Under the pieces are notes generated by a model, which saw nothing but the letters and a program-made list of their open reading frames with translations, ran no database searches and was not told where the DNA came from. From IMG/VR virus record IMGVR_UViG_3300029305_011445: DNA of 53,015 nucleotides; one strand, given 5' to 3'. Source of the DNA: a virus. Lineage: Duplodnaviria > Heunggongvirae > Uroviricota > Caudoviricetes. Shown here piece after piece: positions 5,106-39,465 of the stretch (the first letter of the stretch is position 1; each line of letters begins with the position of its first letter). The position numbers were made by a program, and so were the translations under genes.

Positions 5106-5145
5106 ATTATTTTCTCCTTCGATTCTACTGGAGCGTTTTGCATAC

Positions 5146-5453: not shown

Positions 5454-5702
5454 TGTTTTGTTTCCTTGCGTACTCGTAACTAAAGTTACTCCGTCGTACG
5501 TTCCTTTCATAATTTTGTTTCTTTGTTTCTTTCTATATCAAGAGCACACGAATGTTTACATTCGGTGTGTGAATGATTTGAGAATAACCTTTCTTAAATT
5601 AATTATACTAAATTGTGACAAAAAGTAAAGTAAACCTGTAGTATACTAATCGTCATTATTGTTTGTTTCTAAAAGATATTTCGGCCAAAATTAACCAAAA
5701 TA

Positions 5703-6176
5703 TTAATCACCAATGTCACCATAATCATCGATTTCAAAATCATCCAAGTTACAGTTTTTATAATCTTCAGCATTCATTTGTGGATGCGAATCAATATAAT
5801 TTGATATCAAGTCTGTCACATGTTCGTGTATCATATTATTTTGAAATCCTGTTTTTATACTTTTCAAAATGCGGGATAAATAAAATTCATCACCAAGTAT
5901 GCTAACAATATCGTCTAATAATACAGCGTCGAAAAGTTTGTGACTGGATAAATTATACTGAAACAATTGAATGTATGGTTTATCTACAATGTTGTGAATA
6001 ATCATAAATACATTTTCATTTGCATCTGATCGTATATATGCATAATTCGTTGTAGAAAGTCCTTTTGCTGTTTCTGCAATTTTAAGTATATTATCTGTTA
6101 TTGCATTATAATTGTTTTGCAAATCTTCATGATTTTTGGCAATTATGTTTAAATTGAAACATTTATACCCAACCAT
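5703..6176 (-). CDS. Hypothetical protein
   Basis: GCAGGAG RBS before ATG at 6176; acidic tail. Confidence 0.75.
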   Translation of the reverse strand: MVGYKCFNLNIIAKNHEDLQNNYNAITDNILKIAETAKGLSTTNYAYIRSDANENVFMIIHNIVDKPYIQLFQYNLSSHKLFDAVLLDDIVSILGDEFYLSRILKSIKTGFQNNMIHEHVTDLISNYIDSHPQMNAEDYKNCNLDDFEIDDYGDIGD

Positions 6177-6420
6177 GATGAATATCTCCTGCTTCAATTT
6201 TCTTTGCAATTTCAGGCATTCTACGACCCATTTCTGCATAATCTTTTATTGCTTTAATCACGTGCGATTCAATATCTTCAATGCTTTTATTTTTTTTGAT
6301 CGCCCCATGTGCCATAAAATCAATTTCATCCTGTGTTAATTTTACACCGGTTGCAACTTCGTATTCTTTTACTAACTTATCATCAACTGTGATTTCTTTT
6401 CCTTCAATATTGTAAGTCAT
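6163..6420 (-). CDS. Small hypothetical protein, distant paralog of 1634-1858 and 7428-7652
   Basis: MTYNIEGKEITVDDKLVKEYE vs MLLTVKGRTVEINDELATRYE. Confidence 0.8.
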   Translation of the reverse strand: MTYNIEGKEITVDDKLVKEYEVATGVKLTQDEIDFMAHGAIKKNKSIEDIESHVIKAIKDYAEMGRRMPEIAKKIEAGDIHHGWV

Positions 6421-6497
6421 TTTTTCTCCTTTTCTTTTGCAACTATTTATTGTTACAAATATATAAGGACCAATTTCTTTAAAAACGTAGTAAATTG

Positions 6498-6707
6498 TTA
6501 TACCAACATATCTACGTTACCGCCAATATGCGGATTAACACTTCGCTCCATAGATACTTTTGACGGAGTCGGTGCTGCCTCAATCATTCGCACCATTCCT
6601 TCTCCTGCCGTCTTCATTGCATCCATATTTTTGTTTAATACGGCAAAACCAATTTTGGTGCCTAAATTTGCAGCAGATAAGTTGCTTGAAATCTGTCTTA
6701 TATTCAT
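6498..6707 (-). CDS. YjfB-family (putative motility) protein
   Basis: C-terminal MERSVNPHIGGNVDMLV typical of Clostridial YjfB proteins; AGGAG RBS. Confidence 0.75.
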   Translation of the reverse strand: MNIRQISSNLSAANLGTKIGFAVLNKNMDAMKTAGEGMVRMIEAAPTPSKVSMERSVNPHIGGNVDMLV

Positions 6708-6729
6708 TGTTTTATATACTCCTTTTGTT

Positions 6730-7425
6730 TTAATCATCGTCTGCTGGGTCAAACCCATTATAATCATCTAAATTACCAGCATCATCAGTTCCACCTGTAT
6801 TGTTGATACCAATGCCATAAGTATTGCACATTGCTTGAAATATTGGTGATGCATTATATACTGCTGCATAAAGATTTTCAACAGATACATATTCAAGCGA
6901 CATTGATTCATATGCACCTATCAATGCATCTATATGGTCATTATACTCTGGTAATGATTTGAAACTTGGTCTATATGTATCAATATACGTTTCATACATA
7001 TTAATTGCATCAATTAATGGAATTGCAGCAAGCCATGCTTCATATATTTTGTTTGTACAACCTTCTATATGGTGAGCATTTGCAATCTCTTGCTTTGTGT
7101 TTTGTTCCAAGTTTGCCAATACATACAATTTAATTTTATCAAAGAAAAATGTATCATCATTAAATACAATTCGTTGTTTTCTTGTGTCATATATTCCTAA
7201 ATATATATTATCGTTATGAATAAACATGGTAAGATATGTTGTTGGATCAGAATTATATCTTACAAGTGACACTATCCCTTTATTGTTTAAATTATATGAG
7301 TTCTTGAAACTTTCTATTACTTTTACAACATCATATAATTCTGCACGATTTTGATTATATTTATTTATATTACCATTCTTATCAAATGGAAATAAACATA
7401 AATGAAACCTGGTAATTGTATCCAT
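6730..7425 (-). CDS. Hypothetical protein, paralog of 1230-1631
   Basis: 231 aa; shared MDTITR...LFP..K.GN N-terminus. Confidence 0.85.
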   Translation of the reverse strand: MDTITRFHLCLFPFDKNGNINKYNQNRAELYDVVKVIESFKNSYNLNNKGIVSLVRYNSDPTTYLTMFIHNDNIYLGIYDTRKQRIVFNDDTFFFDKIKLYVLANLEQNTKQEIANAHHIEGCTNKIYEAWLAAIPLIDAINMYETYIDTYRPSFKSLPEYNDHIDALIGAYESMSLEYVSVENLYAAVYNASPIFQAMCNTYGIGINNTGGTDDAGNLDDYNGFDPADDD

Positions 7426-7427
7426 AT

Positions 7428-7652
7428 TTATACACCTGTCACTTCAATATAACCAATAATAGCATCCTCAATAGTCTTAACCATTTCTTCATCAGTAAGA
7501 TCGTCTAAAATGTCATCAGCTAAACACTTATATGTTGTTGAAATTTCGCCCAATGCAAATAATTCTGTAATAGGCCCCATTCCAATCTTTTCATATCTTG
7601 TTGCTAATTCATCGTTGATTTCAACTGTTCTACCTTTTACTGTAAGTAACAT
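7428..7652 (-). CDS. Small acidic hypothetical protein, paralog of 1634-1858
   Basis: 74 aa; collinear similarity along the whole length. Confidence 0.85.
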   Translation of the reverse strand: MLLTVKGRTVEINDELATRYEKIGMGPITELFALGEISTTYKCLADDILDDLTDEEMVKTIEDAIIGYIEVTGV

Positions 7653-7777
7653 ATTTTAATATTCCTTTCTTTTGTTACAACTATTTATTGTTACAAATAT
7701 ATAAGGCTCATTTCTTACTTAAACGTAGTAAATTTGATACCTATCTATATTATACACAAAAACATTAAATTTGAGTA

Positions 7778-7861
7778 TTCGGATACTTCGTATCCTGCGC
7801 AAAAGTTTTGTAAAAACTTGAAAGAATTTTCAATTCTTTTGTGCCCATCTTCGAATGTCCG
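7778..7861 (-). ncRNA. Copy 1 of a repeated three-way-junction motif
   Basis: AAAAGAA..TTCTTT and AAGTTT..AAACTT hairpins inside an outer stem. Confidence 0.45.
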
Positions 7862-8050
7862 CTACGACATTGTATTCCACATTTTTGTTCGCAACATTTT
7901 ATCATAACCTTTATCACATGAGTCTTCTGTGATTGGAGCATGTCTTGCTCGGCGGTTGATTTCTTTGCGACGATTTCGTTTGTCTATTTTAATTTCTCTA
8001 TCCCACCATTTGCGGCAAAAAACATTGCGTCTGGATTGTGTCATACTCAT
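7862..8050 (-). CDS. Small basic hypothetical protein
   Basis: 62 aa, AGGAG RBS, Arg/Lys-rich. Confidence 0.7.
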   Translation of the reverse strand: MSMTQSRRNVFCRKWWDREIKIDKRNRRKEINRRARHAPITEDSCDKGYDKMLRTKMWNTMS

Positions 8051-8073
8051 AATATGTTACTCCTATTGATTAA

Positions 8074-8147
8074 TGCGTGTAGCAGGAATCGAACCTGCAA
8101 TTATATCTGATTAAGAATCAGGAGCCATACCGTTAGGCGATACACGC
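8074..8147 (-). tRNA. tRNA-Lys(CTT)
   Basis: Loop TTCTTAA. Confidence 0.88.
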
Positions 8148-8189
8148 GCGCTATAACGAATCTTGTTATAGCCACAAATATTGTGCTAA

Positions 8190-8262
8190 TGCGCCATATC
8201 CGGCTCGAACGGATGACCTAAGAGTTAAAAGCTCCTTACTCTACCAACTGAGTTAATGACGC
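8190..8262 (-). tRNA. tRNA-Lys(TTT)
   Basis: Loop CTTTTAA. Confidence 0.93.
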
Positions 8263-8269
8263 AGGCTAA

Positions 8270-8341
8270 TCTCCCAGACAGGATTTGAACCTGCGATATA
8301 CGGGTTAAAGGCCCGTTGCCATACCACTTGGCTACTGAGAG
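8270..8341 (-). tRNA. tRNA-Lys(TTT) with C33
   Basis: ACGGG/CCCGT stem, loop CCTTTAA; Gln-like D arm. Confidence 0.8.
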
Positions 8342-8388
8342 ATACTAATATTCTGTTTTCGTACTTTTGATTTCTGTTTTCGTTTCAT
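8332..8388 (-). CDS. 18-aa Lys-rich mini-ORF (MKRKQKSKVRKQNISISQ) overlapping tRNA-Lys
   Basis: GAAAGGAAAA RBS; five AAA codons. Confidence 0.45.
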   Translation of the reverse strand: MKRKQKSKVRKQNISISQ

Positions 8389-8420
8389 GTTTTGTATTTT
8401 CCTTTCGATTTAATAATTAA

Positions 8421-8494
8421 AGCTGAATCTCAGAATCGAACTGAGAACCAACGGCTTACGACACCGCTGCGCTACCAATTTGCGCCAATCCAGC
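8421..8494 (-). tRNA. tRNA-Thr(CGT)
   Basis: Loop GTCGTAA (G32). Confidence 0.85.
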
Positions 8495-8511
8495 ATACTA
8501 TATAAATCAAG

Positions 8512-8591
8512 TGCGCCGCTCTGGACTTGAACCAGAAATGCCGAAGCTACGAATTTACAGTCCGCTGCGATACCATTCCGCTCACCGACGC
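8512..8591 (-). tRNA. tRNA-Tyr(GTA)
   Basis: Loop CTGTAAA, long variable arm. Confidence 0.9.
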
Positions 8592-8684
8592 ATATAAATG
8601 TTTTTGGCTCAGACTTGCTCTGTGTTTTCACCGATTTGGTTCTCTTTAAAGGCTCATCCCATGCACATGCCCACCAAAAACAAA

Positions 8685-8758
8685 TTGCGGATACGAGATT
8701 CGAACTCGTGTCAATGGCTTATGAGACCATGCTGGATCCAACTCCAGTCCAATCCACA
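8685..8758 (-). tRNA. tRNA-Met(CAT)
   Basis: Loop CTCATAA; TGTGGAT/ATCCGCA acceptor. Confidence 0.88.
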
Positions 8759-8782
8759 ATAATATTACGATGATTTGCTACA

Positions 8783-8971
8783 TCAATTTGCTTCTGAAAT
8801 TGCTTTTTCAATCTTTTTCACTTCGATGTTAGCATAAACCTCTTCACCACAATTTTCACATACATATGATTCAATTCCATGAACTGTAGTATCCTGACCA
8901 TTTATGTTAAACGTTTTTGAAACAGTTTTTAATGGCATGTTACCACCACATTGAATACAGGTTCTATGCAT
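8783..8971 (-). CDS. YgiT/MqsA-type zinc-finger protein
   Basis: CIQCGG...GIESYVCENCGEEVY. Confidence 0.85.
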   Translation of the reverse strand: MHRTCIQCGGNMPLKTVSKTFNINGQDTTVHGIESYVCENCGEEVYANIEVKKIEKAISEAN

Positions 8972-9023
8972 GATTTTTTTTCATTTTTAACTCCTTTGTT
9001 TTCGATAATTAATAAGTGACAAA

Positions 9024-9097
9024 AGCTCCAAGCAGGATTTGAACCCGCAACTTACTGCTTACAAGGCAGTCACTCTATCCAGTTGAGTTATTGGAGC
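9024..9097 (-). tRNA. tRNA-Thr(TGT)
   Basis: Loop CTTGTAA. Confidence 0.95.
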
Positions 9098-9222
9098 ATA
9101 ATATTAAATCCCGGTACGGTTTAAGTCGCCGCCCTCGCTACACATTTTGCCACTTATCGTTGTTCCTACGATTCGATGCAACATTTGTTCTTAGCATCGT
9201 ACTTCGATCACCAAAGTACTAA

Positions 9223-9293
9223 AGCTGGTAGTCCGAATTGAACGAACGTAGCTGGGTTACAAATCCAGTGCTCGACCACTGAGCGATACCAGC
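9223..9293 (-). tRNA. tRNA-Thr(TGT)
   Basis: Loop TTTGTAA, A31-C39 mismatch. Confidence 0.8.
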
Positions 9294-9299
9294 ATATGA

Positions 9300-9467
9300 A
9301 ACACTTAACACATAGACCACTCAACTCGCATTCTCTTCGACTAGGATAAATTCATTCCCGTATCCTCGGTTTTTCGTCCCAACCATCTGTTATACAATTT
9401 GTATCATCGCAATCTAAGTCACTAGCAAACTATATCGTGTCAGAATTAGGTTGTTGCATTAAGTGTT
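9300..9467 (-). ncRNA. Candidate 168-nt structured RNA
   Basis: Ends closed by a perfect 9-bp AACACTTAA/TTAAGTGTT helix; internal hairpins. Confidence 0.5.
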
Positions 9468-9469
9468 GA

Positions 9470-9541
9470 AGCACGTGACGGGTGCTGGCCCCGCGTTTCT
9501 GCGTTGGCAACGCAGTGTTTTAGCTGTTAAACTACACATGC
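9470..9541 (-). tRNA. tRNA-Gly(GCC), atypical T and D loops
   Basis: Loop TTGCCAA, U73; T loop GCCAGCA; D loop lacks GG. Confidence 0.8.
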
Positions 9542-9545
9542 ATAA

Positions 9546-9617
9546 AGCGGATGAGGGTAGTCGAAACCCCGTCTCTTGGTTGGAAGCCAAGCGTTCTAGC
9601 CGTTAAACTACACCCGC
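9546..9617 (-). tRNA. tRNA-Gly(TCC)
   Basis: Loop CTTCCAA, U73. Confidence 0.92.
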
Positions 9618-9624
9618 ATATTCT

Positions 9625-9846
9625 GTTTCAGAACAATGTAGTATGTTCACATTGTTCCGTTCTTAGTAACGTCTCGACAACATACGTCTCTTGCACTTGT
9701 CGCTACTAAGAACGTAACTAAACACTCCATCAAAAGGACCGCGAAACTGTAAAGAGGTTTGGAGTATTTAATTCTCTTTTGCTTCTACGAAAGAACTGTG
9801 CAAAAGTTTCTACGAAACTTTAAAGAATCTTCGATTCTTTTGCACC
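9625..9846 (-). ncRNA. Multi-hairpin structured spacer including copy 2 of the three-way-junction motif
   Basis: Long hairpins at 9631-9657, 9658-9714 and 9720-9769; GTGCA/TGCAC-closed junction at about 9798-9845. Confidence 0.5.
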
Positions 9847-9954
9847 ATGCTCTTTTGTTTTCACAAAAGCTTTTTTTGTTGCAGTTTCATTTTCAGGAAC
9901 AGTTATCCTGTCTCTTACCTTAATGCTCCGCAAAGCACCAGGGCCATCCTTTAG

Positions 9955-10027
9955 TACACCCACTAGGAGTCGAACCCAGAATCGCTGGATATAAGCCAGG
10001 TGCAACGTACCGCATCACCTTGGGTGC
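9955..10027 (-). tRNA. tRNA-Ile(TAT)
   Basis: Loop CTTATAT, A73; atypical D arm. Confidence 0.75.
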
Positions 10028-10062
10028 ATATTACTCTTGCAACAAATGCAAGAGTTATAAAT

Positions 10063-10479
10063 TTATTCGTTTACATATCTCTTTGCCACACCAGATGCCA
10101 TTTTGCCATCCATATTTGCGCCAAAATGCTCTTTTAACATCTTCATACATGTACCCATGTTTTTATCAGCATCATTTGTTACAAGATATTCCATGATTTC
10201 ATCTTCTGTTGCCATCTTTGGCAACACTGCTTCACAGTAGCCAATCTTTTCTGTAACTTCATTGTGTCGATCAGTACCTGCTTCACAATACGCTAACAAA
10301 TCATTAAGATCTTTGATTTCTTTTCTTGTAGCAGTTACAATCATTTCATCTGTTACAGCTACATTTGTTTCTTTTGCAATCTTTTGAGCCTTTTCTAAGA
10401 TGCTTTTGTACGTAATCTGTTTATTTTTATTACGCTCTTTCATTGCTTCTTTGATTAAGTTTCTAATTGTTGTTTCCAT
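10063..10479 (-). CDS. GatB/YqeY domain protein
   Basis: LIKEAMKERNK N-terminus; YCEAVLPKMATEDEI; NMGTCMKMLKEHFGANMDGK. Confidence 0.9.
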   Translation of the reverse strand: METTIRNLIKEAMKERNKNKQITYKSILEKAQKIAKETNVAVTDEMIVTATRKEIKDLNDLLAYCEAGTDRHNEVTEKIGYCEAVLPKMATEDEIMEYLVTNDADKNMGTCMKMLKEHFGANMDGKMASGVAKRYVNE

Positions 10480-10617
10480 TGTTTTTGTTTCCTTTGTTTT
10501 TATTCCGCTCTGCTGGTCTCGTATTTCTTTTTTACAAGACCAACAGGCAATTCAGCGGTGACGAACCGCCGAGAAACCATATGTTGTCATCATATGGATG
10601 GACTTGTGAGTCCTAAG

Positions 10618-10689
10618 TTGGAACGGTGAGACTCGAACTCACAACTACTGCATCCCAAATGCAGCCGTCTGCCATTGACTTACGTTCCA
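10618..10689 (-). tRNA. tRNA-Pro(TGG)
   Basis: Loop TTTGGGA. Confidence 0.9.
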
Positions 10690-10809
10690 AAGTTGTGAAA
10701 CATCACGTCTGATGTTTCACCATGCAAGCCTAACCTACATACTTGCTCGAACATTCCATTACGTCACGTTTGTGTGTCGCGATTCACACAAAAATGTTCT
10801 TCCGCCTCA

Positions 10810-10883
10810 TGTCCGATATAGGACTTGAACCTATAAGCCTTCTGCTTGTAAGGCAGCTGTTCTCCCAGTTGAACTAATCGGAC
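10810..10883 (-). tRNA. tRNA-Val(TAC)
   Basis: Loop CTTACAA. Confidence 0.93.
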
Positions 10884-11012
10884 TGATCAACCGTTACCAT
10901 AAATGGTAACTAGCTCACATGAGCTTTAATCATTCACACACTAAAGTGTGCTCTTGATTGCGCCACATTCTACCCATGACGTAGGCGACTCTGCAGAGTA
11001 TTCAGGCGCGAA

Positions 11013-11089
11013 TGGAGCCTACGAGAATTGAACTCGTCTGTTTTTCCTGCTTGCAAGGCAGGTGACCACCCCTTGCAGTCCCAGACCCC
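11013..11089 (-). tRNA. tRNA-Ala(TGC)
   Basis: Loop CTTGCAA; G3-U70 present. Confidence 0.88.
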
Positions 11090-11153
11090 ATATGTTTCTT
11101 GTTTTACTTGGACCAACACATATGTGGCTTGAAACAAGAAAAGCTATCCTGAG

Positions 11154-11226
11154 TGGCTTTGAGACGTTTCGAGCGTCTGACCTTCCGGGCTTCAACCGGA
11201 TGCTACTACCTCTGAGCTACAAAGCC
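11154..11226 (-). tRNA. tRNA-Phe(GAA)
   Basis: Loop TTGAAGC; T loop CTCGAAA. Confidence 0.88.
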
Positions 11227-11230
11227 ATAA

Positions 11231-11304
11231 CGGACACAGTAGGGCTTGAACCTACGACCCCCTGATTAACAGTCAGGTGCTACTACCAGCTGAGCTATGT
11301 GTCC
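11231..11304 (-). tRNA. tRNA-Asn(GTT)
   Basis: Loop CTGTTAA, G73. Confidence 0.95.
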
Positions 11305-11310
11305 ATGTAG

Positions 11311-11393
11311 ACGGTAGGGTGGGAATCGAACCCACGTTGTTTCTTTGTAACGGATTTACAGTCCGCCGTCATCGCCGCTAGACATACCTACCG
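11311..11393 (-). tRNA. tRNA-Tyr(GTA)
   Basis: Loop CTGTAAA, long variable arm. Confidence 0.88.
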
Positions 11394-11961
11394 ATTTTTG
11401 TTTTAATATTTTATTTTGAATAACCAAGACTTTTGCATAAGTTTGCACATTATCGTTTCATTTCTATATTCCTTTCTTCGTGTTTTATTAATATAAAAAG
11501 ACCGTCCCATATCATATACGGAACGATCTTAAGTGTAGACTTAATTAATTACTCTTTCATTACATTTTGGATAACAAAGTTTTGTCATCCAATGATAATT
11601 CCGTATATATATGGTTAGAATTGCAAAAATATCCTGTTGTATAGATAACTCCAAAATTGCACAATGAATTAAGCATAGCTGGTTTCGCTATACTGCCTGT
11701 ATAATTTTTAAAGTTTACATTATGCATTGGCTGTCTCATAATTTTTGCGTCCTTTCTTTTTTTTATATAAACCCGGAACTCATAGGTTACCGGAGTATGA
11801 ACCTTTCTTTAATTCGTTAATAAATATGGTTTATGTCCTTTACAAAGCAAAACATTTCGTTACCGCCTATAACGGCTATATACTCGGGGAAGTATATAGG
11901 TTGAATTTCACAAATTGCAAAATTAAACTTGAAAAGGAGAAAAGATGATTTCCATCTTTAA

Positions 11962-12032
11962 AGCTTATGAAGGGAATCGAACCCTCAAATCTTGCTTGGG
12001 AAGCAAGTGTTTTACCACTAAACTACATAAGC
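11962..12032 (-). tRNA. tRNA-Gly(CCC)
   Basis: Loop TTCCCAA, U73. Confidence 0.93.
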
Positions 12033-12092
12033 AAATTTATTTTATCGATATTGGAACAATGCATTACCCAAGTTCGATATTGTTTTGGGAAA

Positions 12093-12163
12093 TTGCAAAG
12101 GCAGGAGTTGAACCTGCATCCATGGGTCTATGAAGCCCGTGGGATGACCGCATCAGCTTTGCA
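12093..12163 (-). tRNA. Atypical CAT tRNA, initiator-like, with miniature D loop
   Basis: TGCAAAG/CTTTGCA acceptor; GGG/CCC anticodon pairs; GATG-CGGT-CATC D arm. Confidence 0.6.
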
Positions 12164-12234
12164 ACCTGTAACTTTATACACGGAGAAAACCTCATACCAC
12201 TGTCGCATTTCAGTGCCCTATTCTGAAATGCAAG

Positions 12235-12307
12235 CGACTCAGACGGGGATCGAACCCGCTACCTTCTGATAGACAGTCAGACGTGCATCCTATTACACCT
12301 CAGAGCC
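12235..12307 (-). tRNA. tRNA-Asp(GTC)
   Basis: Loop CTGTCTA, G73. Confidence 0.9.
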
Positions 12308-12315
12308 ATATTTAA

Positions 12316-12384
12316 CAGAAACGATGGGATTCGAACCCATGATCTTCCCGTAAAGGACACTCTGCCCGACTGAGCTACGTTTCT
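12316..12384 (-). tRNA. tRNA-like gene with collapsed anticodon arm (no assignable anticodon)
   Basis: Perfect acceptor, D and T arms; anticodon arm reduced to TCC-TTTACG-GGA. Confidence 0.65.
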
Positions 12385-12439
12385 GCGAATGCATACTTTA
12401 AGGTATACATTCTATTGCTACAACAAAACCGTTAGTAGA

Positions 12440-12523
12440 ATCATTGTAACGAAATATTGTTTGTTACCCGGATTTCAAAAGTTTCATAGAAACTTTAAAG
12501 AACCATTGATTCTTTTTACCGGG
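12440..12523 (-). ncRNA. Copy 3 of the three-way-junction motif
   Basis: Same two A/T hairpins, closed by CCCGG/CCGGG. Confidence 0.45.
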
Positions 12524-12544
12524 ATGTAAAGTCGATCCATTTTG

Positions 12545-13080
12545 TCGATCAAAGCGTTTTGTTACTGGTTTATGCTTTTAAACGAATCGCTACCAGACAA
12601 AGCATTCGTCCCTGTTTGTTTGTTGTTGCCAACAAGCACTTGGCTCTGTGCTTCTGTTTGTGTCAGTGCCCTGTATAAAAGTTTATGAAACTTTACGTTT
12701 AAATGAACCATCGCTGACACTGGTTCAACCCGTACAGTCTTTAAAGTGCGTCGGTTATATACACTATTAAATCCATTTTAATGAGCTGAGACATTGACTC
12801 ATGTACTTATCATCTATCATTGTTGGCAATGACATGTCACACAGCCGATTAAGCTGTAGATAAGAGCGACACCAGTTTCGGTTACTGGCTAACCACTGCG
12901 TTAGGTTTCATAGATTTCCGTTTGACACATTCTTCCTTGCGGGATTCAGAGATTGCAGTCTCTTAGAGTTGCATCTACTTGTACTTTTCTCACACTTTGT
13001 CTTGCGAACTCCATGTGCGTTCATATTTCAGAACGATAAGTCGCTTTTAGCCTTAACGCCGTACACACTTTTGCTTTATT
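12545..13080 (-). ncRNA. Large ornate ncRNA, about 540 nt (ROOL-like; family unverified)
   Basis: ORF-free; long-range helix 13055-13071 with 12743-12756; pseudoknot 12714-12720 with 12660-12666; many hairpins; tRNA-array context. Confidence 0.6.
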
Positions 13081-13149
13081 ATGTTTTGTATAATATGATT
13101 TCCTATTATTAAATCAGATAACACAATCCATTTGCAATAGATGTATACA

Positions 13150-13735
13150 ATAATATTCAATTGGATGATGAGGTGCACGTTTTGAATCTCCGTACCTTTT
13201 GAATACGGCCCAATTCGTCACCACCCTGCTCGTCTTGCGATCGACTTGCTTCGTAGCCAATATCCCACGTTGTCCGTGTCCGAATATCAATCAACGATTA
13301 ACATAGCACTTACGCTTGCGGCATTCGTACCATGAAACATTCAACCATCCCCGTATTTCTACGTTATTACAGTGCCTACTCTAGTTTCAAGACACCCACT
13401 CAAACCACATTTTACTAGACAGTAGTCCCTCTGAATGGAAGGTTTGGTGTAGGTTGTAATGGTTTTCCGTCAAACTCCCGATGCGTACGCTCGAAAAGTC
13501 GCAGTATATTAATTACCACTTTATCCCTGTCACCAGGTTTATTTTTAAGCTTTTGTACTTTTACGTAACCGTATTCACGTTTTGCGCGAATACAATCTCG
13601 CTTAAATACAATTACTTTCAGACCCGAAACCAGCCCGTTTGCATTTCTGCAAAAACCGTTCTACAAGACATGATCCTGCTCATAAGACTCAACTGGTATC
13701 TTATGCGTTCCCAACTGAACAGAACGGTGTTCAAA
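13150..13735 (-). ncRNA. Second large structured RNA, about 590 nt (family unknown)
   Basis: GC-enriched, ORF-free on the sense strand; nested helices; GCAA/GAAA/GTGA-capped hairpins. Confidence 0.55.
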
Positions 13736-13782
13736 AACTTTTACAAAAGGAGAAAGTTACAAAATGTTAAATCCTGTAACAG

Positions 13783-13856
13783 TTGCGGGGATTGGACTCG
13801 AACCAACGACCTCCGGGATATGAGCCCGGCGAGCTTCCAACTGCTACCACCCCGCA
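13783..13856 (-). tRNA. tRNA-fMet(CAT)
   Basis: Three G-C pairs in the anticodon stem, loop CTCATAT, U1-A72. Confidence 0.92.
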
Positions 13857-13944
13857 AGATGGCTGAAGATTTAAACTTCAGCCGATATTAAGTTTAAGGA
13901 AGTATAATAATGTACTATACATGTAAAGGTGAGAACATGTATAA

Positions 13945-14017
13945 TCACTCCGGTGGGAATTGAACCCAACATTACCGCCGTGAAAGGACGGTGTCCGTGC
14001 CACTAGACTACGGAGCG
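13945..14017 (-). tRNA. tRNA-Glu(TTC)
   Basis: Loop CTTTCAC. Confidence 0.92.
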
Positions 14018-14038
14018 AGAAATTTATTATATTTATTA

Positions 14039-15561: not shown

Positions 15562-15602
15562 AAAAAAAACGGATACCAAATCGGCATCCGTTTCTTTTTT
15601 TT
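15562..15602. terminator. Bidirectional terminator between convergent genes
   Basis: A-run aaacggatac...gcatccgttt T-run. Confidence 0.75.
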
Positions 15603-16336
15603 TACACGATGAATTTATCCATAGGTTTTAATTTGAACAAATTGGTTTCGTGTTTCTTGCGAATCAAATCATCTGTTTCTTTATTACCACTAGTTCCAAT
15701 ACGAATATACTGGTCTAAAGCTTCGTATGTGAAACCGAAGTTGTCTTCATCTGTTTTGCCACAAAGACCGTCTGCCGGGGTTTTGTCGACCAGGTGGTTT
15801 GGTAATTTTAAGTATTTACCAATTGCAACGACTTCTGTTTTTGTTAATCCACCTAATGGGGCAAAATCACCATCTCCGTCACCACCAATTGTAAAATATC
15901 CAATATAATCTTCAGATAAATTACAAGTATTTACCATACGACCATTTACGCACTGGCAAACAGCTCGAATGACTTTTGTTCGTTCACGTGGCGGTAAATT
16001 TTCTCGGGCTTGTTTTGTGATATATAATTCACAATCGTTTAAAACATTGTATGTAGCATCTACGCCGCTTTTAATGTTGATTGTCAAATTCGGGATACCC
16101 AAGATGTCGCAAACCTCTTTAGCGTCAGCAATATCGGACTGTTCACCATTCGGCAACATCAACCCGAGCACGCGATCTGGTCCTAAAGCCTTGACGCATA
16201 ATGCAGCTGCGACGGTAGAATCCTTTCCGCCTGAAATGCCCAATACAGCTTTACTTTTTGGCCCATTTTCTTCGAACCACATTTTAATCCAGTTAACCAA
16301 CTCATTGGTTACACGTTCGACATTGAATTTGTACAT
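15602..16336 (-). CDS. nadE: NH3-dependent NAD+ synthetase
   Basis: VLGISGGKDS, NLSE..GYFTIGGDG.GD, LTKTEV, KTPADGL; no glutaminase domain. Confidence 0.97.
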   Translation of the reverse strand: MYKFNVERVTNELVNWIKMWFEENGPKSKAVLGISGGKDSTVAAALCVKALGPDRVLGLMLPNGEQSDIADAKEVCDILGIPNLTINIKSGVDATYNVLNDCELYITKQARENLPPRERTKVIRAVCQCVNGRMVNTCNLSEDYIGYFTIGGDGDGDFAPLGGLTKTEVVAIGKYLKLPNHLVDKTPADGLCGKTDEDNFGFTYEALDQYIRIGTSGNKETDDLIRKKHETNLFKLKPMDKFIV

Positions 16337-16361
16337 ATACTAATCTCCATTCCTTTCGTCA

Positions 16362-17252
16362 TTAGAAAATCAAACTCGCTTTTGAATCCCATTTGCTATA
16401 CAAGTGACCATTTGGTCTTAAAATGAGATACTTAACAGCTGTTTTATTAACGCCTTGTGACATAGAGTCTTCATCAATTACTGTTGAAAATCCTTTGTAA
16501 TCATATCGATCGGCGCCATATTCAAGTGTGTCAAGATACTTACCATCAGCTTCCACCGCTGTTTTAAATGTCTCAATAAACCCATATGTAGGGAGTGTTA
16601 CATTTTTATTGATCCAGTCTGCTTGCGGTGTACCATCTTCTGATGTCCATAAAGCGCGACACGTAATCTGATCTGCACCAAATGTTTTGCAACGATTAAT
16701 AACAGCTTCCAATGCTACTGGCGCATCTTCTAATCCTGCAATCATTTTATCGTTCATGTTAAGACAGATACGAAGATTCATATTACGTTCTTTGATTTTG
16801 CCACAAAGTTTTTTAATCTTAAGATTTTTATCCGGTGTCTTAATCATGTTACGATTTTTCTTGTCATCATCAAGACATGCAACAGAAATAGCCATTGTTG
16901 TTACACCTACATCCTGTAAAAAATCTAACATGTCATCATCAATAAATGCTCCAGATGTCTGCATTTCGATATTAAGGAATGGATCTTTGAGTGACTTATT
17001 TACAACACCAAGAACGCGTAAGAAGTCTTTGTTTTGCTGCGGTTCATTGTTACCTGTAAGCATCAACGTGTTGCAGCCATTATCTCTGGCGTACTGAAGT
17101 CTTTTCTTCATATCCTCAATGTAACTCATAGTTGTTGCAATTGGTGTGAATCGATCTTCATAATCAGCACCATGCATTTTACTGCAACAAAACTGACAAT
17201 CATTAATACATTTTTTAGCCGGCACACATACCGATAGTGATTGAATATTCAT
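16362..17252 (-). CDS. Radical SAM protein of unknown function
   Basis: CINDCQFC (CxxxCxxC), LTGNNEP. Confidence 0.9.
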   Translation of the reverse strand: MNIQSLSVCVPAKKCINDCQFCCSKMHGADYEDRFTPIATTMSYIEDMKKRLQYARDNGCNTLMLTGNNEPQQNKDFLRVLGVVNKSLKDPFLNIEMQTSGAFIDDDMLDFLQDVGVTTMAISVACLDDDKKNRNMIKTPDKNLKIKKLCGKIKERNMNLRICLNMNDKMIAGLEDAPVALEAVINRCKTFGADQITCRALWTSEDGTPQADWINKNVTLPTYGFIETFKTAVEADGKYLDTLEYGADRYDYKGFSTVIDEDSMSQGVNKTAVKYLILRPNGHLYSKWDSKASLIF

Positions 17253-17442
17253 TTTTATTACTCCTTTTCTTTGTAATTATTTGATACAGAAATAAATATG
17301 GTATATATATTACTAAAATAAAAAGAAAATGCATCGGAAACATTTCGATGCATTTGTCTTTTATTCTTTACTTACCATTGAATCCTGATTTAACCAGTTT
17401 TATATTCTAAGCAGGTTGTATTAGCCCGCTTGGAACTTAAGA

Positions 17443-18651
17443 TTACTGATTGTTCATACGCCAATCGATGCAACGTTGCAAATATTCAACGTATTCAGGA
17501 TTTTTACACATACCTTTACCTGGTGTGTCTGAGATTTTTGCAACATCCTGTCCGTTACAAACTGTAACCTTCATAACGATATTAAGAGGTTTTACATATG
17601 TATCGTTTGAAATGTGTGTACCAATACCAAAGGCAACACGTGCGCGGTTATGAAAGTGATGGAAAATTTCGTCTGCTTTTTTAAAATCAAGACTGTCACT
17701 AAACAACAGAGTCTTTGTCATTGGATCAATACCAAGTGACTCATAATGTTCAATCATCTTTTCACCCCATTCAATTGGATCTCCACTATCGTGACGAACG
17801 CCTGAGAATAAGGTTGCATAGGTAAGCTGGAAATCTTTAAGGAAACAATCAGTTGTGATTGTGTCAGTAAGCGCCGTACCATTCAACACCCCGTACTCTT
17901 TCACCCATGCATCCAGAGCGTACCAGTTAGAGTATGCTGGATTGTGTTTATGGTTACCCTGGCCGGTACACATGATCCATTCATGTGCCATGGTACCAAC
18001 TGGTGTTAAGCCATACTTCTTTGCAAGATACACATTAGATGTACCAACAAATGTGGAACAACCATATTTTGTTTCAGCTAAGCGTTTTACGGCATATTCC
18101 TGTGCTTCAGCTGATAAACGGCGACGAAGGCCAAATTCGCTAAAGCTTGATAAACAATAAGATCCGCCAATAGCAATCTTCTTTAACTTTTCTTCGAAAC
18201 GTTCTTTGAAGCTCTCAAAAAGTTCATCATAATCATACATCATCCAGAAATATGTTTCATTTACGATAGCAAGAACTGGAATTTCATACATTGATGTATT
18301 AAGCCATGTCCCTTTTGCTTCAATAGATAATCCGCACTCAGCATCGGTTGTGATAGTGAAATCTTCGAAACGAGGCTGCCAGAGACGTAAGAAATCTACA
18401 TAAGAGCCTTTGATCCATCTAATCGAATCAAGATACTGTAACTCATCTTCTGTGAAACGAAGATTACAGTACGCTTTAATCTGTTCTTTGATTTCTTCCA
18501 CAATTGCCGGTGTAAAATACACATCTTTGTTACGGCATTTGAAAGTCCAAGTTGTTTTATAATCAGAAAACTGATGGAAAATTGCTTGGCCCATTGAAAG
18601 TTTGTACATATCCGTTTCTAACAGACTTGTAATGATTTGATTTAATTTCAT
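17443..18651 (-). CDS. pncB: Nicotinate phosphoribosyltransferase
   Basis: LLETDMYK, SEFGLRRR, GTSNV, GTMAHEW, RHDSGDP, FSDSL, FGIGT. Confidence 0.97.
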   Translation of the reverse strand: MKLNQIITSLLETDMYKLSMGQAIFHQFSDYKTTWTFKCRNKDVYFTPAIVEEIKEQIKAYCNLRFTEDELQYLDSIRWIKGSYVDFLRLWQPRFEDFTITTDAECGLSIEAKGTWLNTSMYEIPVLAIVNETYFWMMYDYDELFESFKERFEEKLKKIAIGGSYCLSSFSEFGLRRRLSAEAQEYAVKRLAETKYGCSTFVGTSNVYLAKKYGLTPVGTMAHEWIMCTGQGNHKHNPAYSNWYALDAWVKEYGVLNGTALTDTITTDCFLKDFQLTYATLFSGVRHDSGDPIEWGEKMIEHYESLGIDPMTKTLLFSDSLDFKKADEIFHHFHNRARVAFGIGTHISNDTYVKPLNIVMKVTVCNGQDVAKISDTPGKGMCKNPEYVEYLQRCIDWRMNNQ

Positions 18652-18828
18652 AATCATTTCTCCTTTTTCTTGTATAAGATATTTGAAACTTTATGTTTCA
18701 GTTACAAAAATAAATATGGTATGCAGAAATTGCATACTATCGCATTTAATAAATCAAACGATCTTTCGTTACGCATTGACGCCTTTAACAAGTTAAAGGA
18801 TATGATATATAAAGAGATACGAAGCAGA

Positions 18829-19266
18829 TTACTCCACTTCGTATTCGTAAAATTCTCGTAACGCATTTAATTTTTCACAAACACATGGCGTTCCATCTGA
18901 ATTCATAAGCATAGTAAATGTTGTTCCAAAACCTCGTGCCTCAACACCGCTTACTTCCTTTTCTGTATATAGATACATTATTCCCGTCTCTAAATCAACG
19001 ATTGTATACATATACAAATATTCGTAATTCAAATAAATTGACTCTTTTTCAATTGGGACGAAACGTACATTGCCAGATATTTTCATCAGAATTCCATCAT
19101 CGGAAAGCTCGAAAATCTTTTCTGTTTCAATTTCTTCAATCACTTCAATTACTTTGTTATTCTCATAATTGGTGTTTAATTCATTTTTAACAGTAGATGA
19201 TGATGTTTCACCACACCCTGTAACAAATATCATTGTTCCAATTAAAAATATGATTAATTTTTTCAT
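18829..19266 (-). CDS. Lipoprotein, DUF6440-like
   Basis: Lipobox FVTGC; IVDLETGIMYLY...TMLMNSDGTP. Confidence 0.65.
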   Translation of the reverse strand: MKKLIIFLIGTMIFVTGCGETSSSTVKNELNTNYENNKVIEVIEEIETEKIFELSDDGILMKISGNVRFVPIEKESIYLNYEYLYMYTIVDLETGIMYLYTEKEVSGVEARGFGTTFTMLMNSDGTPCVCEKLNALREFYEYEVE

Positions 19267-19366
19267 ATCACTTTATCTCCTTTTATTATTGTATAATATA
19301 TATAAGGTCCAAAATATTTCAAAACGAAGAAAAAAAATACACCAGATTACTGGTGTATTTTTCTGT

Positions 19367-19924
19367 TTAAATAATCTCTACCTGACACATTTTCATTGCT
19401 TCAATTGCTGTTTTGTGTGACTCTGGAGTTACGCATGCACATGCTTTTTCGATGACAACGATTTTTGTTTCCGGTACTGCTGCTTTTGCAAGCAATACGT
19501 TACTGATAACACAAATACCTGTACAAACACCACAGAAATGAATTTCGTCATAGTCAGCGAATTCAAATTTAAGTTTATGTGCCAAAATTTCAGAACCAAA
19601 TGTTGGTTTCTCAAGAGCTATTCCTTTTATATATTTAGACGCAGATGTTAATTTTGAAGTCTGATTTACAATTGCATCTTTAACGTCTTTCTGAATCTCA
19701 TAGCCTTTTGTTCCTCTGATACAATGTGGAACCGGTAAATTTCTACCTTCCTGTGTTTCCATGTAATTTTCGCCATGAGTATCCTGAGTCGTAATAATTG
19801 TATCATACTCACCTGATGCAATAAGCTTAATTACTTCCGGTACTGTTGCTGCACATTCAGCGTTTCCCAATGGTCCTGTTAAAAAATCGTTCTGCATGTC
19901 CACGATTACTAATGCTTTTTTCAT
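19367..19924 (-). CDS. pncA: Nicotinamidase (isochorismatase/cysteine hydrolase family)
   Basis: VDMQNDF, TQDTH, HCIRGT.G, GVCTGICV; located in the NAD cluster. Confidence 0.9.
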   Translation of the reverse strand: MKKALVIVDMQNDFLTGPLGNAECAATVPEVIKLIASGEYDTIITTQDTHGENYMETQEGRNLPVPHCIRGTKGYEIQKDVKDAIVNQTSKLTSASKYIKGIALEKPTFGSEILAHKLKFEFADYDEIHFCGVCTGICVISNVLLAKAAVPETKIVVIEKACACVTPESHKTAIEAMKMCQVEII

Positions 19925-19954
19925 ATTTTTATTTCCTTTCATTTTTACATAAGA

Positions 19955-20527
19955 TTAATTGTTATTGTTCATCATGTTTCGATAATATGGCACCGACATT
20001 AACTCGGCACGAAGCTTATCATACATTTTGTGAAGTCTCGGATTTACCAGTGCCATCCACTCCTCGCGGCGATCTTCAACCATGAGCTGTCTTAACATTG
20101 TTGCAGAAATTGGAAGCTCTGCTCTGTTAATGATAAGCTCAGTTGTATTCTTAAGATCTTCTTTCGCAAACCAACTGGAACGACTTTCATCGTTACCATA
20201 AATCATGATTTCCGGGTTCTTATAGATATAACGATGTACGTTATCTAATAAATAACGCCCCCATTCCGGACGGATATCGTCTTCGTTTGTCATATCTGCA
20301 AGACCGTAAATCATAATGTTTGGTGAATCCCCATAAATTTCTTTTAACATTTCTGTTCGGGTATTGATGTTAAGCGGATTTCTTTCGGTACCACATTCCT
20401 GTGAACTACCTACTAAAATAATCAAACGATCACATAACAACAAACCTGTATCAACAAGTTTTTCATGACCTTTATGAAACGTCTGGAATCTACCAACAAT
20501 TAATCCTGTATCGTATGGTTTTCCCAT
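19955..20527 (-). CDS. NMN/NaMN adenylyltransferase (NadM-like cytidylyltransferase fold)
   Basis: GRFQTFHKGH (HxGH), GS...RNP, PISATMLR. Confidence 0.9.
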   Translation of the reverse strand: MGKPYDTGLIVGRFQTFHKGHEKLVDTGLLLCDRLIILVGSSQECGTERNPLNINTRTEMLKEIYGDSPNIMIYGLADMTNEDDIRPEWGRYLLDNVHRYIYKNPEIMIYGNDESRSSWFAKEDLKNTTELIINRAELPISATMLRQLMVEDRREEWMALVNPRLHKMYDKLRAELMSVPYYRNMMNNNN

Positions 20528-20586
20528 ATTTTTACTCCTTTCGTTTGTTAATAAGTATATTTTATAACGTAATAAATATGGTACGG

Positions 20587-38118: not shown

Positions 38119-39465
38119 TTACGCACTAAATTCGACCAAATATTCAATGGTTGCCTGACACTGTTGATATACAATTACCTCATCATTACGCAATCGCATA
38201 CCATTGTCACCATTGTTACGTTCTGCCCATAAGCAGTCGCAATCCGGATGATCTCTGTGAAAATCCTCCCAATGATGTGGTGATTTACACATACCACCGT
38301 CTCTGTAAATATAATATGGATTTCCTGTTGCAACTTTGAAAATTGCAAGATAGGCTTTGTTATCAGACCCTTGTGCCCAATAAGAACCTCGTGACGAAGT
38401 ATATCCTATTGATTTACCAGCACTAGGTGCAAAATAAATGCCATATCCAAACATTTTACCACAAATACGAACATCTGCTTTTACGAGCTCCGGATTCAAA
38501 TATAAACCGTTTAAGAAAATACTCCACCAATTTGGTGTGCCGGAACCATGCCAAAGTTTTGTAATACCACCATTTTCTTCAGTAAGATTCCGTGATTTAC
38601 AATATTTGTTAAAAGCATCTTCTGTTTGATGATTTTTACATTTCCATGCTCGCAAATATCTTGCGCGATTATTTGTCATCAAATCTTTGATAAAGTTCTC
38701 TTCATCTTTTGTGACATCTCGCATTTCAAGATTGTTTGCTTCCAGAATTGTTTTGTTAGCATCAACAGCACCTGTGGTTCGAAGCATTGAACACAAGAAA
38801 TCTAACAATTCCTGTTCCGCTTGAATTTTGTTCGTGAAATCGCTTTGTTTTTTAACGATTTCATTTTTCATCTGGCGAATTGGACGAGGAATAATTGTCC
38901 ACAAATCCATCAGTAATTTGTTAAATTCAGATACAGATAAAGAATCTTTTTCTGTATTTAACTTATTGATAAGTTCTTGTGCAGCGGTTAAATCCTTTTC
39001 CGGGATTGTATCGATTTTAACAGAATACTGTTCGCTAAGGACTTCATTTGCGGCAGCTAATAACTCTTTTAAAATGTCACGAACTGAAACGTTCTCGATT
39101 TCACGATATTCACCTGACTTCTTAATTTCTTTGGCATCAAGTTTTTCTGTAGAAACGACATTCCATTTCGAACAAATCTTGCGGCTTACATACTCGCACC
39201 ATTCTGTTATTGGTAACCTTCTACAAGTCTGTTTGTTTGGGCCAAACTTAACCTGCGTTTTGCCACTTTTTACGGTGAAGAAAAGCCCGTCCGCAGAAAC
39301 TTCCAATTCTTCCTGCTCGTTTTTACCGATATTTGTGCCAAAATTCATTGCCACTTTACGAAGTAAAAGGTACTTCGTTTTTGTCGGATCAAAAATTGGA
39401 TCCATTGCCATATCATCTACGATATCTGCAGTGTCCATGTTGTTCATTGATAATTCACTTGCCAT
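38119..39465 (-). CDS. PARP-type ADP-ribosyltransferase (regulatory plus catalytic domains)
   Basis: LWHGS, GKMFGYGIYFA..A.KS..Y, LRNDEVIVY (H-Y-E triad); LWTIIP regulatory-domain motif. Confidence 0.92.
   Translation of the reverse strand: MASELSMNNMDTADIVDDMAMDPIFDPTKTKYLLLRKVAMNFGTNIGKNEQEELEVSADGLFFTVKSGKTQVKFGPNKQTCRRLPITEWCEYVSRKICSKWNVVSTEKLDAKEIKKSGEYREIENVSVRDILKELLAAANEVLSEQYSVKIDTIPEKDLTAAQELINKLNTEKDSLSVSEFNKLLMDLWTIIPRPIRQMKNEIVKKQSDFTNKIQAEQELLDFLCSMLRTTGAVDANKTILEANNLEMRDVTKDEENFIKDLMTNNRARYLRAWKCKNHQTEDAFNKYCKSRNLTEENGGITKLWHGSGTPNWWSIFLNGLYLNPELVKADVRICGKMFGYGIYFAPSAGKSIGYTSSRGSYWAQGSDNKAYLAIFKVATGNPYYIYRDGGMCKSPHHWEDFHRDHPDCDCLWAERNNGDNGMRLRNDEVIVYQQCQATIEYLVEFSA

What the first reader, a model, noticed from the sequence alone, without database searches (positions are those of the whole stretch)
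15602..20527. Complete four-enzyme deamidating NAD+ rebuild pathway on a mobile element: candidate new anti-defence route
Seen: pncA, pncB, an HxGH adenylyltransferase and nadE cluster within 5 kb; a class B motif precedes the nadE, pncB and adenylyltransferase units. Known: these give Nam -> NA -> NaMN -> NaAD -> NAD+. SIR2/TIR defences (Thoeris, DSR, SIR2-HerA, SEFIR) destroy NAD+ to Nam plus ADPR, and phages counter with the two-enzyme NARP1 (Adps+Namat) or NARP2 (Nampt+Nmnat). Inference: this is a chemically different Preiss-Handler-type reconstitution route that could rescue infection or feed the element's own ARTs.
Basis: partly seen in the sequence, partly recalled or inferred. Interest (0 to 1): 0.85.

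Follow-up and report, generated by a model that had tools for sequence, protein, structure and literature searches.

The report
Mobile-element nicotinamide-to-NAD salvage genes
A large mobile element of gut or rumen Lachnospiraceae carries its own copies of the four ordinary enzymes that turn nicotinamide back into NAD+; such gene sets are already catalogued on large phages, and their proposed role against NAD-destroying bacterial defences is still untested.

Summary
On the minus strand of 15602-20527 lie an NMN/NaMN adenylyltransferase, a nicotinamidase (PncA), a nicotinate phosphoribosyltransferase (PncB) and an ammonia-type NAD synthetase (NadE). All have intact catalytic motifs.

They form three cassettes, each with its own terminator and each led by the element's 12-base promoter motif. 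Two genes the finding did not mention are interleaved: a lipoprotein and a radical SAM enzyme co-transcribed with nadE.

Corrections:
- The adenylyltransferase is NadM/archaeal type, not NadD. The order of the last two steps is therefore not fixed by sequence.
- The motif precedes the radical SAM gene, not nadE itself.

The pathway is not new. Preiss-Handler clusters on large phages were published in 2024 (PMC11662467). I found the same set on dozens of IMG/VR contigs, including a complete 332-kb phage. This scan has noted it before on other DNA (316 notes, at least 285 genomes). Lachnospiraceae chromosomes carry pncA-pncB(-nadE) with PncB 77-82% identical.

No paper I could search tests the deamidating route against Thoeris, DSR or SIR2-HerA. 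The anti-defence role stays a plausible hypothesis. Feeding the element's own PARP is an equally good one.

The most unusual part is the radical SAM enzyme, which recurs inside these clusters.

The parts
19955..20527 (-). NMN/NaMN adenylyltransferase, NadM/archaeal type (190 aa; HKGH 18-21, ISATMLR 140-146). First gene of cassette 1.
   Evidence: PF01467 40.9 bits. The NCBIfam best hits are all NMNAT families, below the equivalog cut-offs. The best PDB relatives are 9x6f, 2qjt, 1ej2 and 1f9a, all NMNATs. A 75% identical copy lies between pncB and nadE in L002. Motifs.
19367..19942 (-). PncA nicotinamidase (the likely start is the ATG at 19924). Second gene of cassette 1.
   Evidence: PF00857 69.4 bits. 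PDB best hits are the nicotinamidases 1ilw/1im5 and 3pl1. Asp15, Lys112 (or 97) and Cys144 are aligned, as are the metal ligands Asp54/His56/His73.
18829..19266 (-). Interleaved lipoprotein cassette (signal peptide with lipobox VTGC, weak DUF6440). Not part of the pathway.
   Evidence: It has its own sigma-70-like promoter (19322-19295) and its own terminator (18844-18817).
17443..18657 (-). PncB nicotinate phosphoribosyltransferase (404 aa). Cassette 2.
   Evidence: TIGR01514 428 bits (cut-off 269.55) and NF003704 493.5 bits (cut-off 379). 1yir E 4.8e-97. GTMAHE at 221-226.
16362..17252 (-). Radical SAM enzyme of unknown reaction (CINDCQFC 15-22). First gene of cassette 3, 25 bp upstream of nadE.
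   Evidence: PF04055 45.7 bits. MoaA/viperin-like fold, TM 0.6-0.67. Homologues lie inside NAD clusters in L166/167, L169/170, L171, L174 and L175.
15602..16336 (-). NadE, single-domain ammonia-type NAD synthetase (244 aa; SGGKDS 35-40). Second gene of cassette 3.
   Evidence: PF02540 171 bits; TIGR00552 158.5 bits (cut-off 63.65). Nearest PDB entries are 2e18 and 3fiu.
20571..20582 (-). Element promoter motif ACCATATTTATT before cassette 1.
   Evidence: It lies 43 nt upstream of the ATG at 20527.
18709..18720 (-). Element promoter motif before pncB, abutted by a stem-loop at 18737-18719.
17291..17302 (-). Element promoter motif before rSAM-nadE.
   Evidence: It lies 38 nt upstream of the ATG at 17252.
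19331..19364 (-). Terminator hairpin after pncA.
17327..17355 (-). Terminator hairpin after pncB. It is palindromic: the scan called it on the + strand, and on the minus strand it is followed by a T-run.
15562..15598 (-). Terminator hairpin after nadE.
38119..39465 (-). PARP-domain protein, an NAD+ consumer on the same element that releases nicotinamide. Context only.
   Evidence: PF00644 61.5 bits (cut-off 26.7).

Best explanation
This is the element's own copy of the ordinary bacterial deamidating nicotinamide salvage route.

The steps:
1. PncA hydrolyses nicotinamide to nicotinate.
2. PncB makes nicotinate mononucleotide from nicotinate, PRPP and ATP.
3. A NadM-type adenylyltransferase and an ammonia-dependent NadE then finish NAD+. 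The most likely order is NaMN -> NaAD -> NAD+.

The genes sit in three cassettes, each driven by the promoter motif that the element places before its own genes. They are therefore expressed with the element's programme, independently of host NAD regulation.

The effect is to keep the NAD+ pool up in a Lachnospiraceae host by recycling nicotinamide, whichever enzyme released it. That enzyme could be the element's own PARP or a host NADase.

Shown by sequence here: gene identity, catalytic motifs, cassette structure, and conservation of the set.
Inferred: enzyme activities, the order of the last two steps, the benefit to the element, and the role of the radical SAM enzyme that travels with the set.
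For: - Family scores are above curated cut-offs for PncB and NadE.
- PncA has a complete nicotinamidase triad and metal site.
- The adenylyltransferase has both NMNAT motifs, and its best relatives are all NMNATs.
- There are three exact promoter motifs and three terminators.
- The motif is enriched 21 against 1.45 expected in the window. It is absent from other elements that carry the same module.
- The same enzyme set is clustered, in varied order, in L169, L171, L174 and L175.
- It is also clustered in about 61 of 80 IMG/VR loci. These include a complete 332-kb record with terminal repeats.
- PncB is 77-82% identical to chromosomal Lachnospiraceae PncB, which is usually adjacent to pncA.
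- A PARP lies on the same element.
- Archaeal NadM uses both NaMN and NMN, and it works with a conventional NAD synthetase (PMC3376133).
Against: - No activity or expression data exist.
- PncA scores far below the PncA equivalog cut-off (27 against 174 bits). Its assignment rests on motifs and context.
- The adenylyltransferase is below every equivalog cut-off. NadM-type enzymes often prefer NMN.
- NadE is about as close to the Francisella NMN synthetase (3fiu) as to an archaeal NadE (2e18).
- The host already has this route, so the benefit of a second copy is only assumed.
Confidence: 0.65

Rival explanations
1. Dedicated counter-defence. The set was selected mainly to rebuild NAD+ from the nicotinamide released by SIR2, TIR or SEFIR effectors during infection, as a four-step analogue of NARP2.
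For: - NAD+-rebuilding pathways do rescue phages from such defences: NARP1/2 and NARP3.
- Related clusters start with an NrtR-type repressor that responds to ADP-ribose, the other product of NADases.
- The set is common on large phage genomes.
Against: - No paper in the searched library tests the deamidating route.
- The route duplicates a host pathway and has four ATP/PRPP-costly steps.
- Earlier notes of this scan describe the element as plasmid-like, with a relaxase (I did not check this). No close relative of its backbone is in IMG/VR.
- No known defence or anti-defence family lies beside the cluster.
Confidence: 0.25
2. Supply line for the element's own NAD+ consumers. The set mainly recycles the nicotinamide produced by the element's PARP-type enzymes (and NAD-dependent ligase in relatives), so that they do not drain the cell.
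For: - A PARP is in the window. Earlier notes report a second PARP and a PARG further along the element (I did not check this).
- In L171 an NAD-dependent DNA ligase lies directly upstream of pncA.
- The 2024 paper reports that NAD-synthesis and NAD-consuming genes co-occur on jumbo phages.
Against: - The PARP is 18 kb away and in a separate cassette.
- Many clusters in other loci show no consumer within 10 kb.
- The ART-like ORF at 48710 is below threshold.
Confidence: 0.3
3. Francisella-type order of steps. NadE acts as an NMN synthetase (NaMN -> NMN) and the NadM-type enzyme then adenylates NMN.
For: - The adenylyltransferase is NadM type.
- The NadE is of the short kind, and 3fiu (Francisella) is its second-best solved relative at E 4.6e-33.
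- This pairing is known from Francisella (PMC3376133).
Against: - The archaeal NadE of the same short kind showed no NMN synthetase activity (PMC3376133).
- 2e18 scores slightly higher than 3fiu.
- The residues that decide specificity could not be checked, because the paper is not held.
Confidence: 0.2
4. Host-benefit cargo of a resident plasmid. The genes improve niacin or nicotinamide scavenging by the bacterium and have nothing to do with infection.
For: - Plasmid-like traits: a ParM-like gene and a Rep-like gene in the window, and a relaxase in earlier notes (I did not check this).
- A Selenomonas megaplasmid carries a 69% identical pncB.
Against: - Host chromosomes of this lineage usually have pncA-pncB already.
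- The window looks like a takeover genome. It has 40 tRNAs, split NrdD, dUTPase, helicases and its own promoter system.
Confidence: 0.12

Closest known systems
Preiss-Handler clusters of 'NAD-jumbo phages' (Microbiome 2024, PMC11662467; e.g. Kuafu_71 pncB-nadD-nadE)
   Same: NAD+ synthesis genes of the nicotinate route are clustered on a large mobile genome. NAD-consuming enzymes such as PARP sit on the same genome. The same counter-defence speculation was made.
   Different: - Here the adenylyltransferase is NadM type, not NadD.
- pncA is included.
- The genes are split into three cassettes under an element-specific promoter.
- A radical SAM gene is co-transcribed with nadE.
- The element is not shown to be a phage.
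Chromosomal pncA-pncB(-nadE) operons of Lachnospiraceae, and NrtR-regulated salvage operons
   Same: The enzymes are the same. PncB is 77-82% identical. pncA is adjacent in 51 of 80 loci and nadE in 22 of 80.
   Different: - The window has no NrtR and uses the element's promoter.
- It adds a NadM-type adenylyltransferase, which is rare beside host pncB (4 of 80 loci, weak hits).
NARP2 (Nampt + Nmnat; Vibrio phage KVP40)
   Same: It starts from nicotinamide and ends with an NMNAT-family enzyme. It also leaves ADP-ribose unused.
   Different: NARP2 has two steps through NMN. Here there is no Nampt: the phosphoribosyltransferase is a nicotinate-type PncB, so a deamidation and a re-amidation are needed.
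NARP1 (Adps + Namat)
   Same: It has the same end product, NAD+.
   Different: NARP1 rebuilds NAD+ from ADP-ribose plus nicotinamide through ADPR-PP. The cluster here has no PRPS-like gene and no Namat.
NARP3 (PnuC + NadR-like; PMC13464706)
   Same: Its adenylyltransferase belongs to the same broad NMNAT family. The best solved relative of the window's enzyme is 9x6f, annotated only as an NMN adenylyltransferase.
   Different: NARP3 imports nicotinamide riboside and phosphorylates it. No transporter or kinase is present here.
Francisella route (NadE as NMN synthetase + NadM)
   Same: It pairs a NadM-type adenylyltransferase with a short single-domain NadE.
   Different: Substrate preference is unknown here. 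The archaeal pairing of the same two families runs through NaAD.

Membership tests
Deamidating nicotinamide salvage (PncA, PncB, NadD, NadE) | A nicotinamidase with the Asp-Lys-Cys triad and a metal site | tested here: met
   Asp15, Lys112 (or 97) and Cys144 are present, with Asp54/His56/His73. They align to 1im5 and 5zn8. The whole-protein equivalog score is not reached (27 against 174 bits).
Deamidating nicotinamide salvage (PncA, PncB, NadD, NadE) | A nicotinate phosphoribosyltransferase | tested here: met
   TIGR01514 428 bits against 269.55. 1yir E 4.8e-97.
Deamidating nicotinamide salvage (PncA, PncB, NadD, NadE) | A NadD-type NaMN adenylyltransferase | tested here: not met
   The best matches are NadM, archaeal or NadR NMNATs, with no NadD model among the hits. 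The L012 lineage does have a NadD-type enzyme (TIGR00482 102 bits).
Deamidating nicotinamide salvage (PncA, PncB, NadD, NadE) | An NAD synthetase | tested here: met
   TIGR00552 158.5 bits against 63.65. SGGKDS P-loop. Single domain with no glutaminase, so ammonia-dependent.
Deamidating nicotinamide salvage (PncA, PncB, NadD, NadE) | Measured conversion of nicotinamide to NAD+ | not testable with these tools
   This needs enzyme assays.
NAD-jumbo phage Preiss-Handler cluster (PMC11662467) | pncB, an adenylyltransferase and nadE clustered on one genome | tested here: met
   All lie within 5 kb.
NAD-jumbo phage Preiss-Handler cluster (PMC11662467) | The carrier is a phage with a genome over 200 kb | tested here: inconclusive
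   - No virion gene is in the window.
- The backbone has no close relative in IMG/VR.
- The RecD-like helicase is about 30% identical to both phage and plasmid genes.
- Earlier notes call the element plasmid-like.
NARP2 | Nampt (nicotinamide phosphoribosyltransferase) | tested here: not met
   The only phosphoribosyltransferase is a nicotinate-type PncB. Its match to the phage Nampt family phrog_448 is weak (67 bits), against 428 bits to NAPRTase.
NARP1 | Adps (PRPS-like) and Namat | tested here: not met
   No such families were found among the cluster genes and their neighbours.
NARP3 | A PnuC transporter and a NadR-like kinase/adenylyltransferase | tested here: not met
   None was found among the ORFs scanned. 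The adenylyltransferase has 190 aa and no kinase domain.
Anti-defence system against NAD+ depletion | Rescue of infection and of NAD+ level in cells with an NADase defence | not testable with these tools
   No experiment on this route was found in the library.

The most novel reading that the evidence does not exclude
The radical SAM enzyme that travels with these genes is a fifth catalytic member. If so, this is a five-enzyme module with an undescribed radical step on a pyridine nucleotide or on ADP-ribose, and the module as a whole works as a counter-measure to NAD+-destroying defences.
Probability: 0.15. Interest if true: 0.75.

Novelty: new member of a known kind. Interest (0 to 1): 0.3.

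Why it matters
If the deamidating route protects mobile elements from NAD+-depleting immunity, it would be a fourth way to rebuild NAD+. It would also be a common one, so it would matter for predicting which phages escape Thoeris-, DSR- or SIR2-type defences in gut bacteria.

As it stands, this locus adds one more example to a set already catalogued from sequence. Three features are useful:
- The module is cleanly split into three self-promoted cassettes, which are easy to clone and test.
- It uses a NadM-type adenylyltransferase.
- It is tightly linked to an unstudied radical SAM family, which may point to unknown NAD chemistry.

Tried and rejected
- An exact look-up of the window's PncB found nothing on record. 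NadE and the radical SAM protein were found, but only on short metagenome contigs of the same element.
- No close relatives of the element's backbone are in IMG/VR. The 732-aa helicase gave none, the radical SAM profile gave none, and the 579-aa helicase gave only 48% hits on small contigs.
- The helicase search in the phage and plasmid collections gave about 30% identity in both, so it does not discriminate.
- No whole genome is held for the window.
- PADLOC gave nothing for the cluster neighbours or for the radical SAM protein, so it is not a catalogued prokaryotic viperin.
- The radical SAM proteins of the window and of the L012 lineage are not detectably similar (E 0.31). I therefore do not treat them as one family.
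- I considered the radical SAM protein as the missing NrdD activase. I think this less likely. It has no NrdG model hit, its fold is nearest to MoaA and viperin, and it is linked to NAD genes in loci with no NrdD nearby.
- The PncB tree is poorly resolved. It shows only that element and chromosomal copies are interleaved (quick tree, the careful search did not finish).
- The supplements of PMC11662467 are not held, and the Francisella NMN synthetase paper is not held.
Full report
**What is in the sequence**

Six genes lie head to tail on the minus strand between 15602 and 20527:
- an adenylyltransferase (19955-20527);
- PncA (19367-19942);
- a lipoprotein (18829-19266);
- PncB (17443-18657);
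- a radical SAM protein (16362-17252);
- NadE (15602-16336).

PncB and NadE pass curated family cut-offs. PncB scores 428 bits on TIGR01514 against 269.55, and NadE scores 158.5 bits on TIGR00552 against 63.65.

PncA is an isochorismatase-fold protein. Its best solved relatives are nicotinamidases. It keeps the catalytic Asp15, a Lys (112 or 97) and Cys144, and also the Asp54/His56/His73 metal site. Its whole-protein score against the PncA equivalog model is low (27 against 174 bits).

The adenylyltransferase has HKGH and ISATMLR motifs. It matches only NMN adenylyltransferases of the NadM, archaeal and NadR kinds, not NadD. Its real start is the ATG at 20527, which has a strong ribosome-binding site. 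The upstream GTG listed by the ORF finder is not the start. This agrees with the finding's end coordinate.

**Transcription units**

The 12-mer ACCATATTTATT occurs exactly before the adenylyltransferase, before pncB and before the radical SAM gene, 38-51 nt from the start codons. The window has 21 matches at up to one mismatch, against 1.45 expected.

Terminator hairpins follow pncA, the lipoprotein gene, pncB and nadE. The pathway is therefore split into three cassettes: adenylyltransferase-pncA, pncB, and rSAM-nadE. An unrelated lipoprotein cassette, with a sigma-70-like promoter, lies between the first two.

I confirmed only its enrichment and its positions.

**What carries it**

The window is not chromosomal in character:
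- 40 tRNA genes, for all 20 amino acids, lie in 12 kb.
- Almost all genes are on one strand.
- There are helicases, a polymerase exonuclease-like gene, a ParM-like gene and a Rep-like gene.
- NrdD is split by an HNH endonuclease gene, and there is a dUTPase and a PARP.

No virion gene is in the window, and the backbone has no close relative in IMG/VR. The same element occurs on short contigs in several metagenomes. Earlier notes call it plasmid-like, with a relaxase; I did not check this. I leave open whether it is a phage, a phage-plasmid or a plasmid.

The host lineage is most likely Lachnospiraceae. The closest cellular PncB proteins (77-82% identity) are from Butyrivibrio, Bovifimicola, Agathobacter and Roseburia. 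In a quick tree, element and chromosomal copies are interleaved.

**How common the set is**

In the 80 nearest chromosomal loci, pncA sits next to pncB in 51 and nadE follows in 22. The element therefore duplicates a host route.

In IMG/VR, 141 contigs encode a PncB 76-82% identical to the window's. About 61 of the 80 fetched have pncA, pncB, an adenylyltransferase and nadE together. In that lineage the adenylyltransferase is NadD type. One record with all four genes within 6.5 kb is a 332-kb genome with terminal repeats, rated complete. Cultured jumbo phages such as Atu_ph07 also carry pncB.

**What is already published**

- A 2024 paper reports 174 jumbo phages with complete NAD+ synthesis by salvage or Preiss-Handler routes. 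It describes clustered pncB-nadD-nadE, accompanying PARP and ligase genes, and a counter-defence speculation (PMC11662467).
- NARP1 and NARP2 and NARP3 (PnuC plus NadR-like) are the tested pathways.
- None of the papers I could search tests the deamidating route.
- This scan has itself noted the same set many times on other DNA (316 notes in at least 285 genomes).

**How it probably works**

Nicotinamide goes to nicotinate, then to NaMN, then to NAD+. The last two steps can run in either order, because the adenylyltransferase is NadM type:
- Archaeal NadM uses both NaMN and NMN, and pairs with a normal NAD synthetase.
- In Francisella the NadE homologue is an NMN synthetase (PMC3376133).

The window's NadE is about equally close to an archaeal NadE (2e18) and to the Francisella enzyme (3fiu). 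I favour the NaAD order (about 0.8 to 0.2), because it is the common one.

The three element-specific promoters show that the element expresses these genes itself. In related modules on other elements the same cluster is instead led by an NrtR-type repressor responsive to ADP-ribose, and the motif is absent from those elements.

The selective reason is not decided by the data. Recycling nicotinamide serves equally well after the element's own PARP and after a host NADase.

**The radical SAM gene**

It belongs to an unnamed family with at least 716 homologues. I looked at eight genomic contexts of this family:
- Six place it inside pncA/pncB/adenylyltransferase/nadE clusters, in different orders and with different NadE types. 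These are the window, L166/167, L169/170, L171, L174 and L175.
- One places it between MnmA-like and CoaE genes.
- One is a lone chromosomal gene.

Its predicted fold (mean pLDDT 76.6) is nearest to MoaA and viperin, both of which act on nucleoside triphosphates. It has no PADLOC viperin match.

Other notes of this scan report radical SAM genes in NAD operons of unrelated organisms. I regard it as the most interesting part of the locus, but its reaction is unknown.

**Verdict**

The pathway assignment is well supported by sequence. The claim of a new anti-defence route is not new as a genomic observation and remains untested as a function. This is a new member of a known kind.

Noticed in passing
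window 16362-17252; loci L166, L169, L171, L174, L175: An unnamed radical SAM family with a MoaA/viperin-like fold sits inside nicotinamide salvage clusters in 6 of 8 contexts examined. The clusters differ in gene order and lie on different mobile backbones.
   Followed up: partly
L169 7872-8753; L174 5385-6224; L175 7829-8419: Related NAD modules on other elements start with an NrtR-type repressor (Nudix plus winged helix; L175 shows only the winged-helix part). The matching NCBIfam model, scored on L169 only (158.9 bits, cut-off 400), is an ADP-ribose-responsive repressor. The window has no such gene and uses its own promoter motif instead.
   Followed up: partly
window 1979-14018: An array of 40 tRNA genes, all on the minus strand, covers all 20 amino acids and has several duplicates.
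   Followed up: no
window 44829-48031: The anaerobic ribonucleotide reductase NrdD is split. The ATP-cone plus N-terminus lie at 47462-48031, an HNH endonuclease ORF at 46634-47353, and the rest at 44829-46511. No NrdG activase was recognised in the window.
   Followed up: no
window 38119-39465 and 48710-49192: A protein with a PARP catalytic domain scores above the Pfam cut-off. A second ORF has only a sub-threshold ART-PolyVal match.
   Followed up: no
window 18719-18737: A 7-bp stem-loop directly abuts the promoter motif of pncB.
   Followed up: no
L012 9370-9999 and 60 of 80 IMG/VR loci: A DUF5662 protein is conserved between pncA and pncB in the main IMG/VR lineage. In 16 loci a 214-aa radical SAM protein with a weak NrdG2 match is also present.
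   Followed up: partly
L003, L004, L006 compared with L108, L125: Some IMG/VR 'viral' contigs share the gene order of Agathobacter chromosomal loci: adenylyltransferase-like gene, pncA, pncB, distant nadE. They may be host or provirus-flank fragments. IMG/VR also labels the L012 record a provirus.
   Followed up: no
window 31239-32300 and 40959-42116: A ParM-like partition ATPase and a Rep-like HTH protein give a plasmid-style maintenance module beside phage-style replication genes.
   Followed up: no
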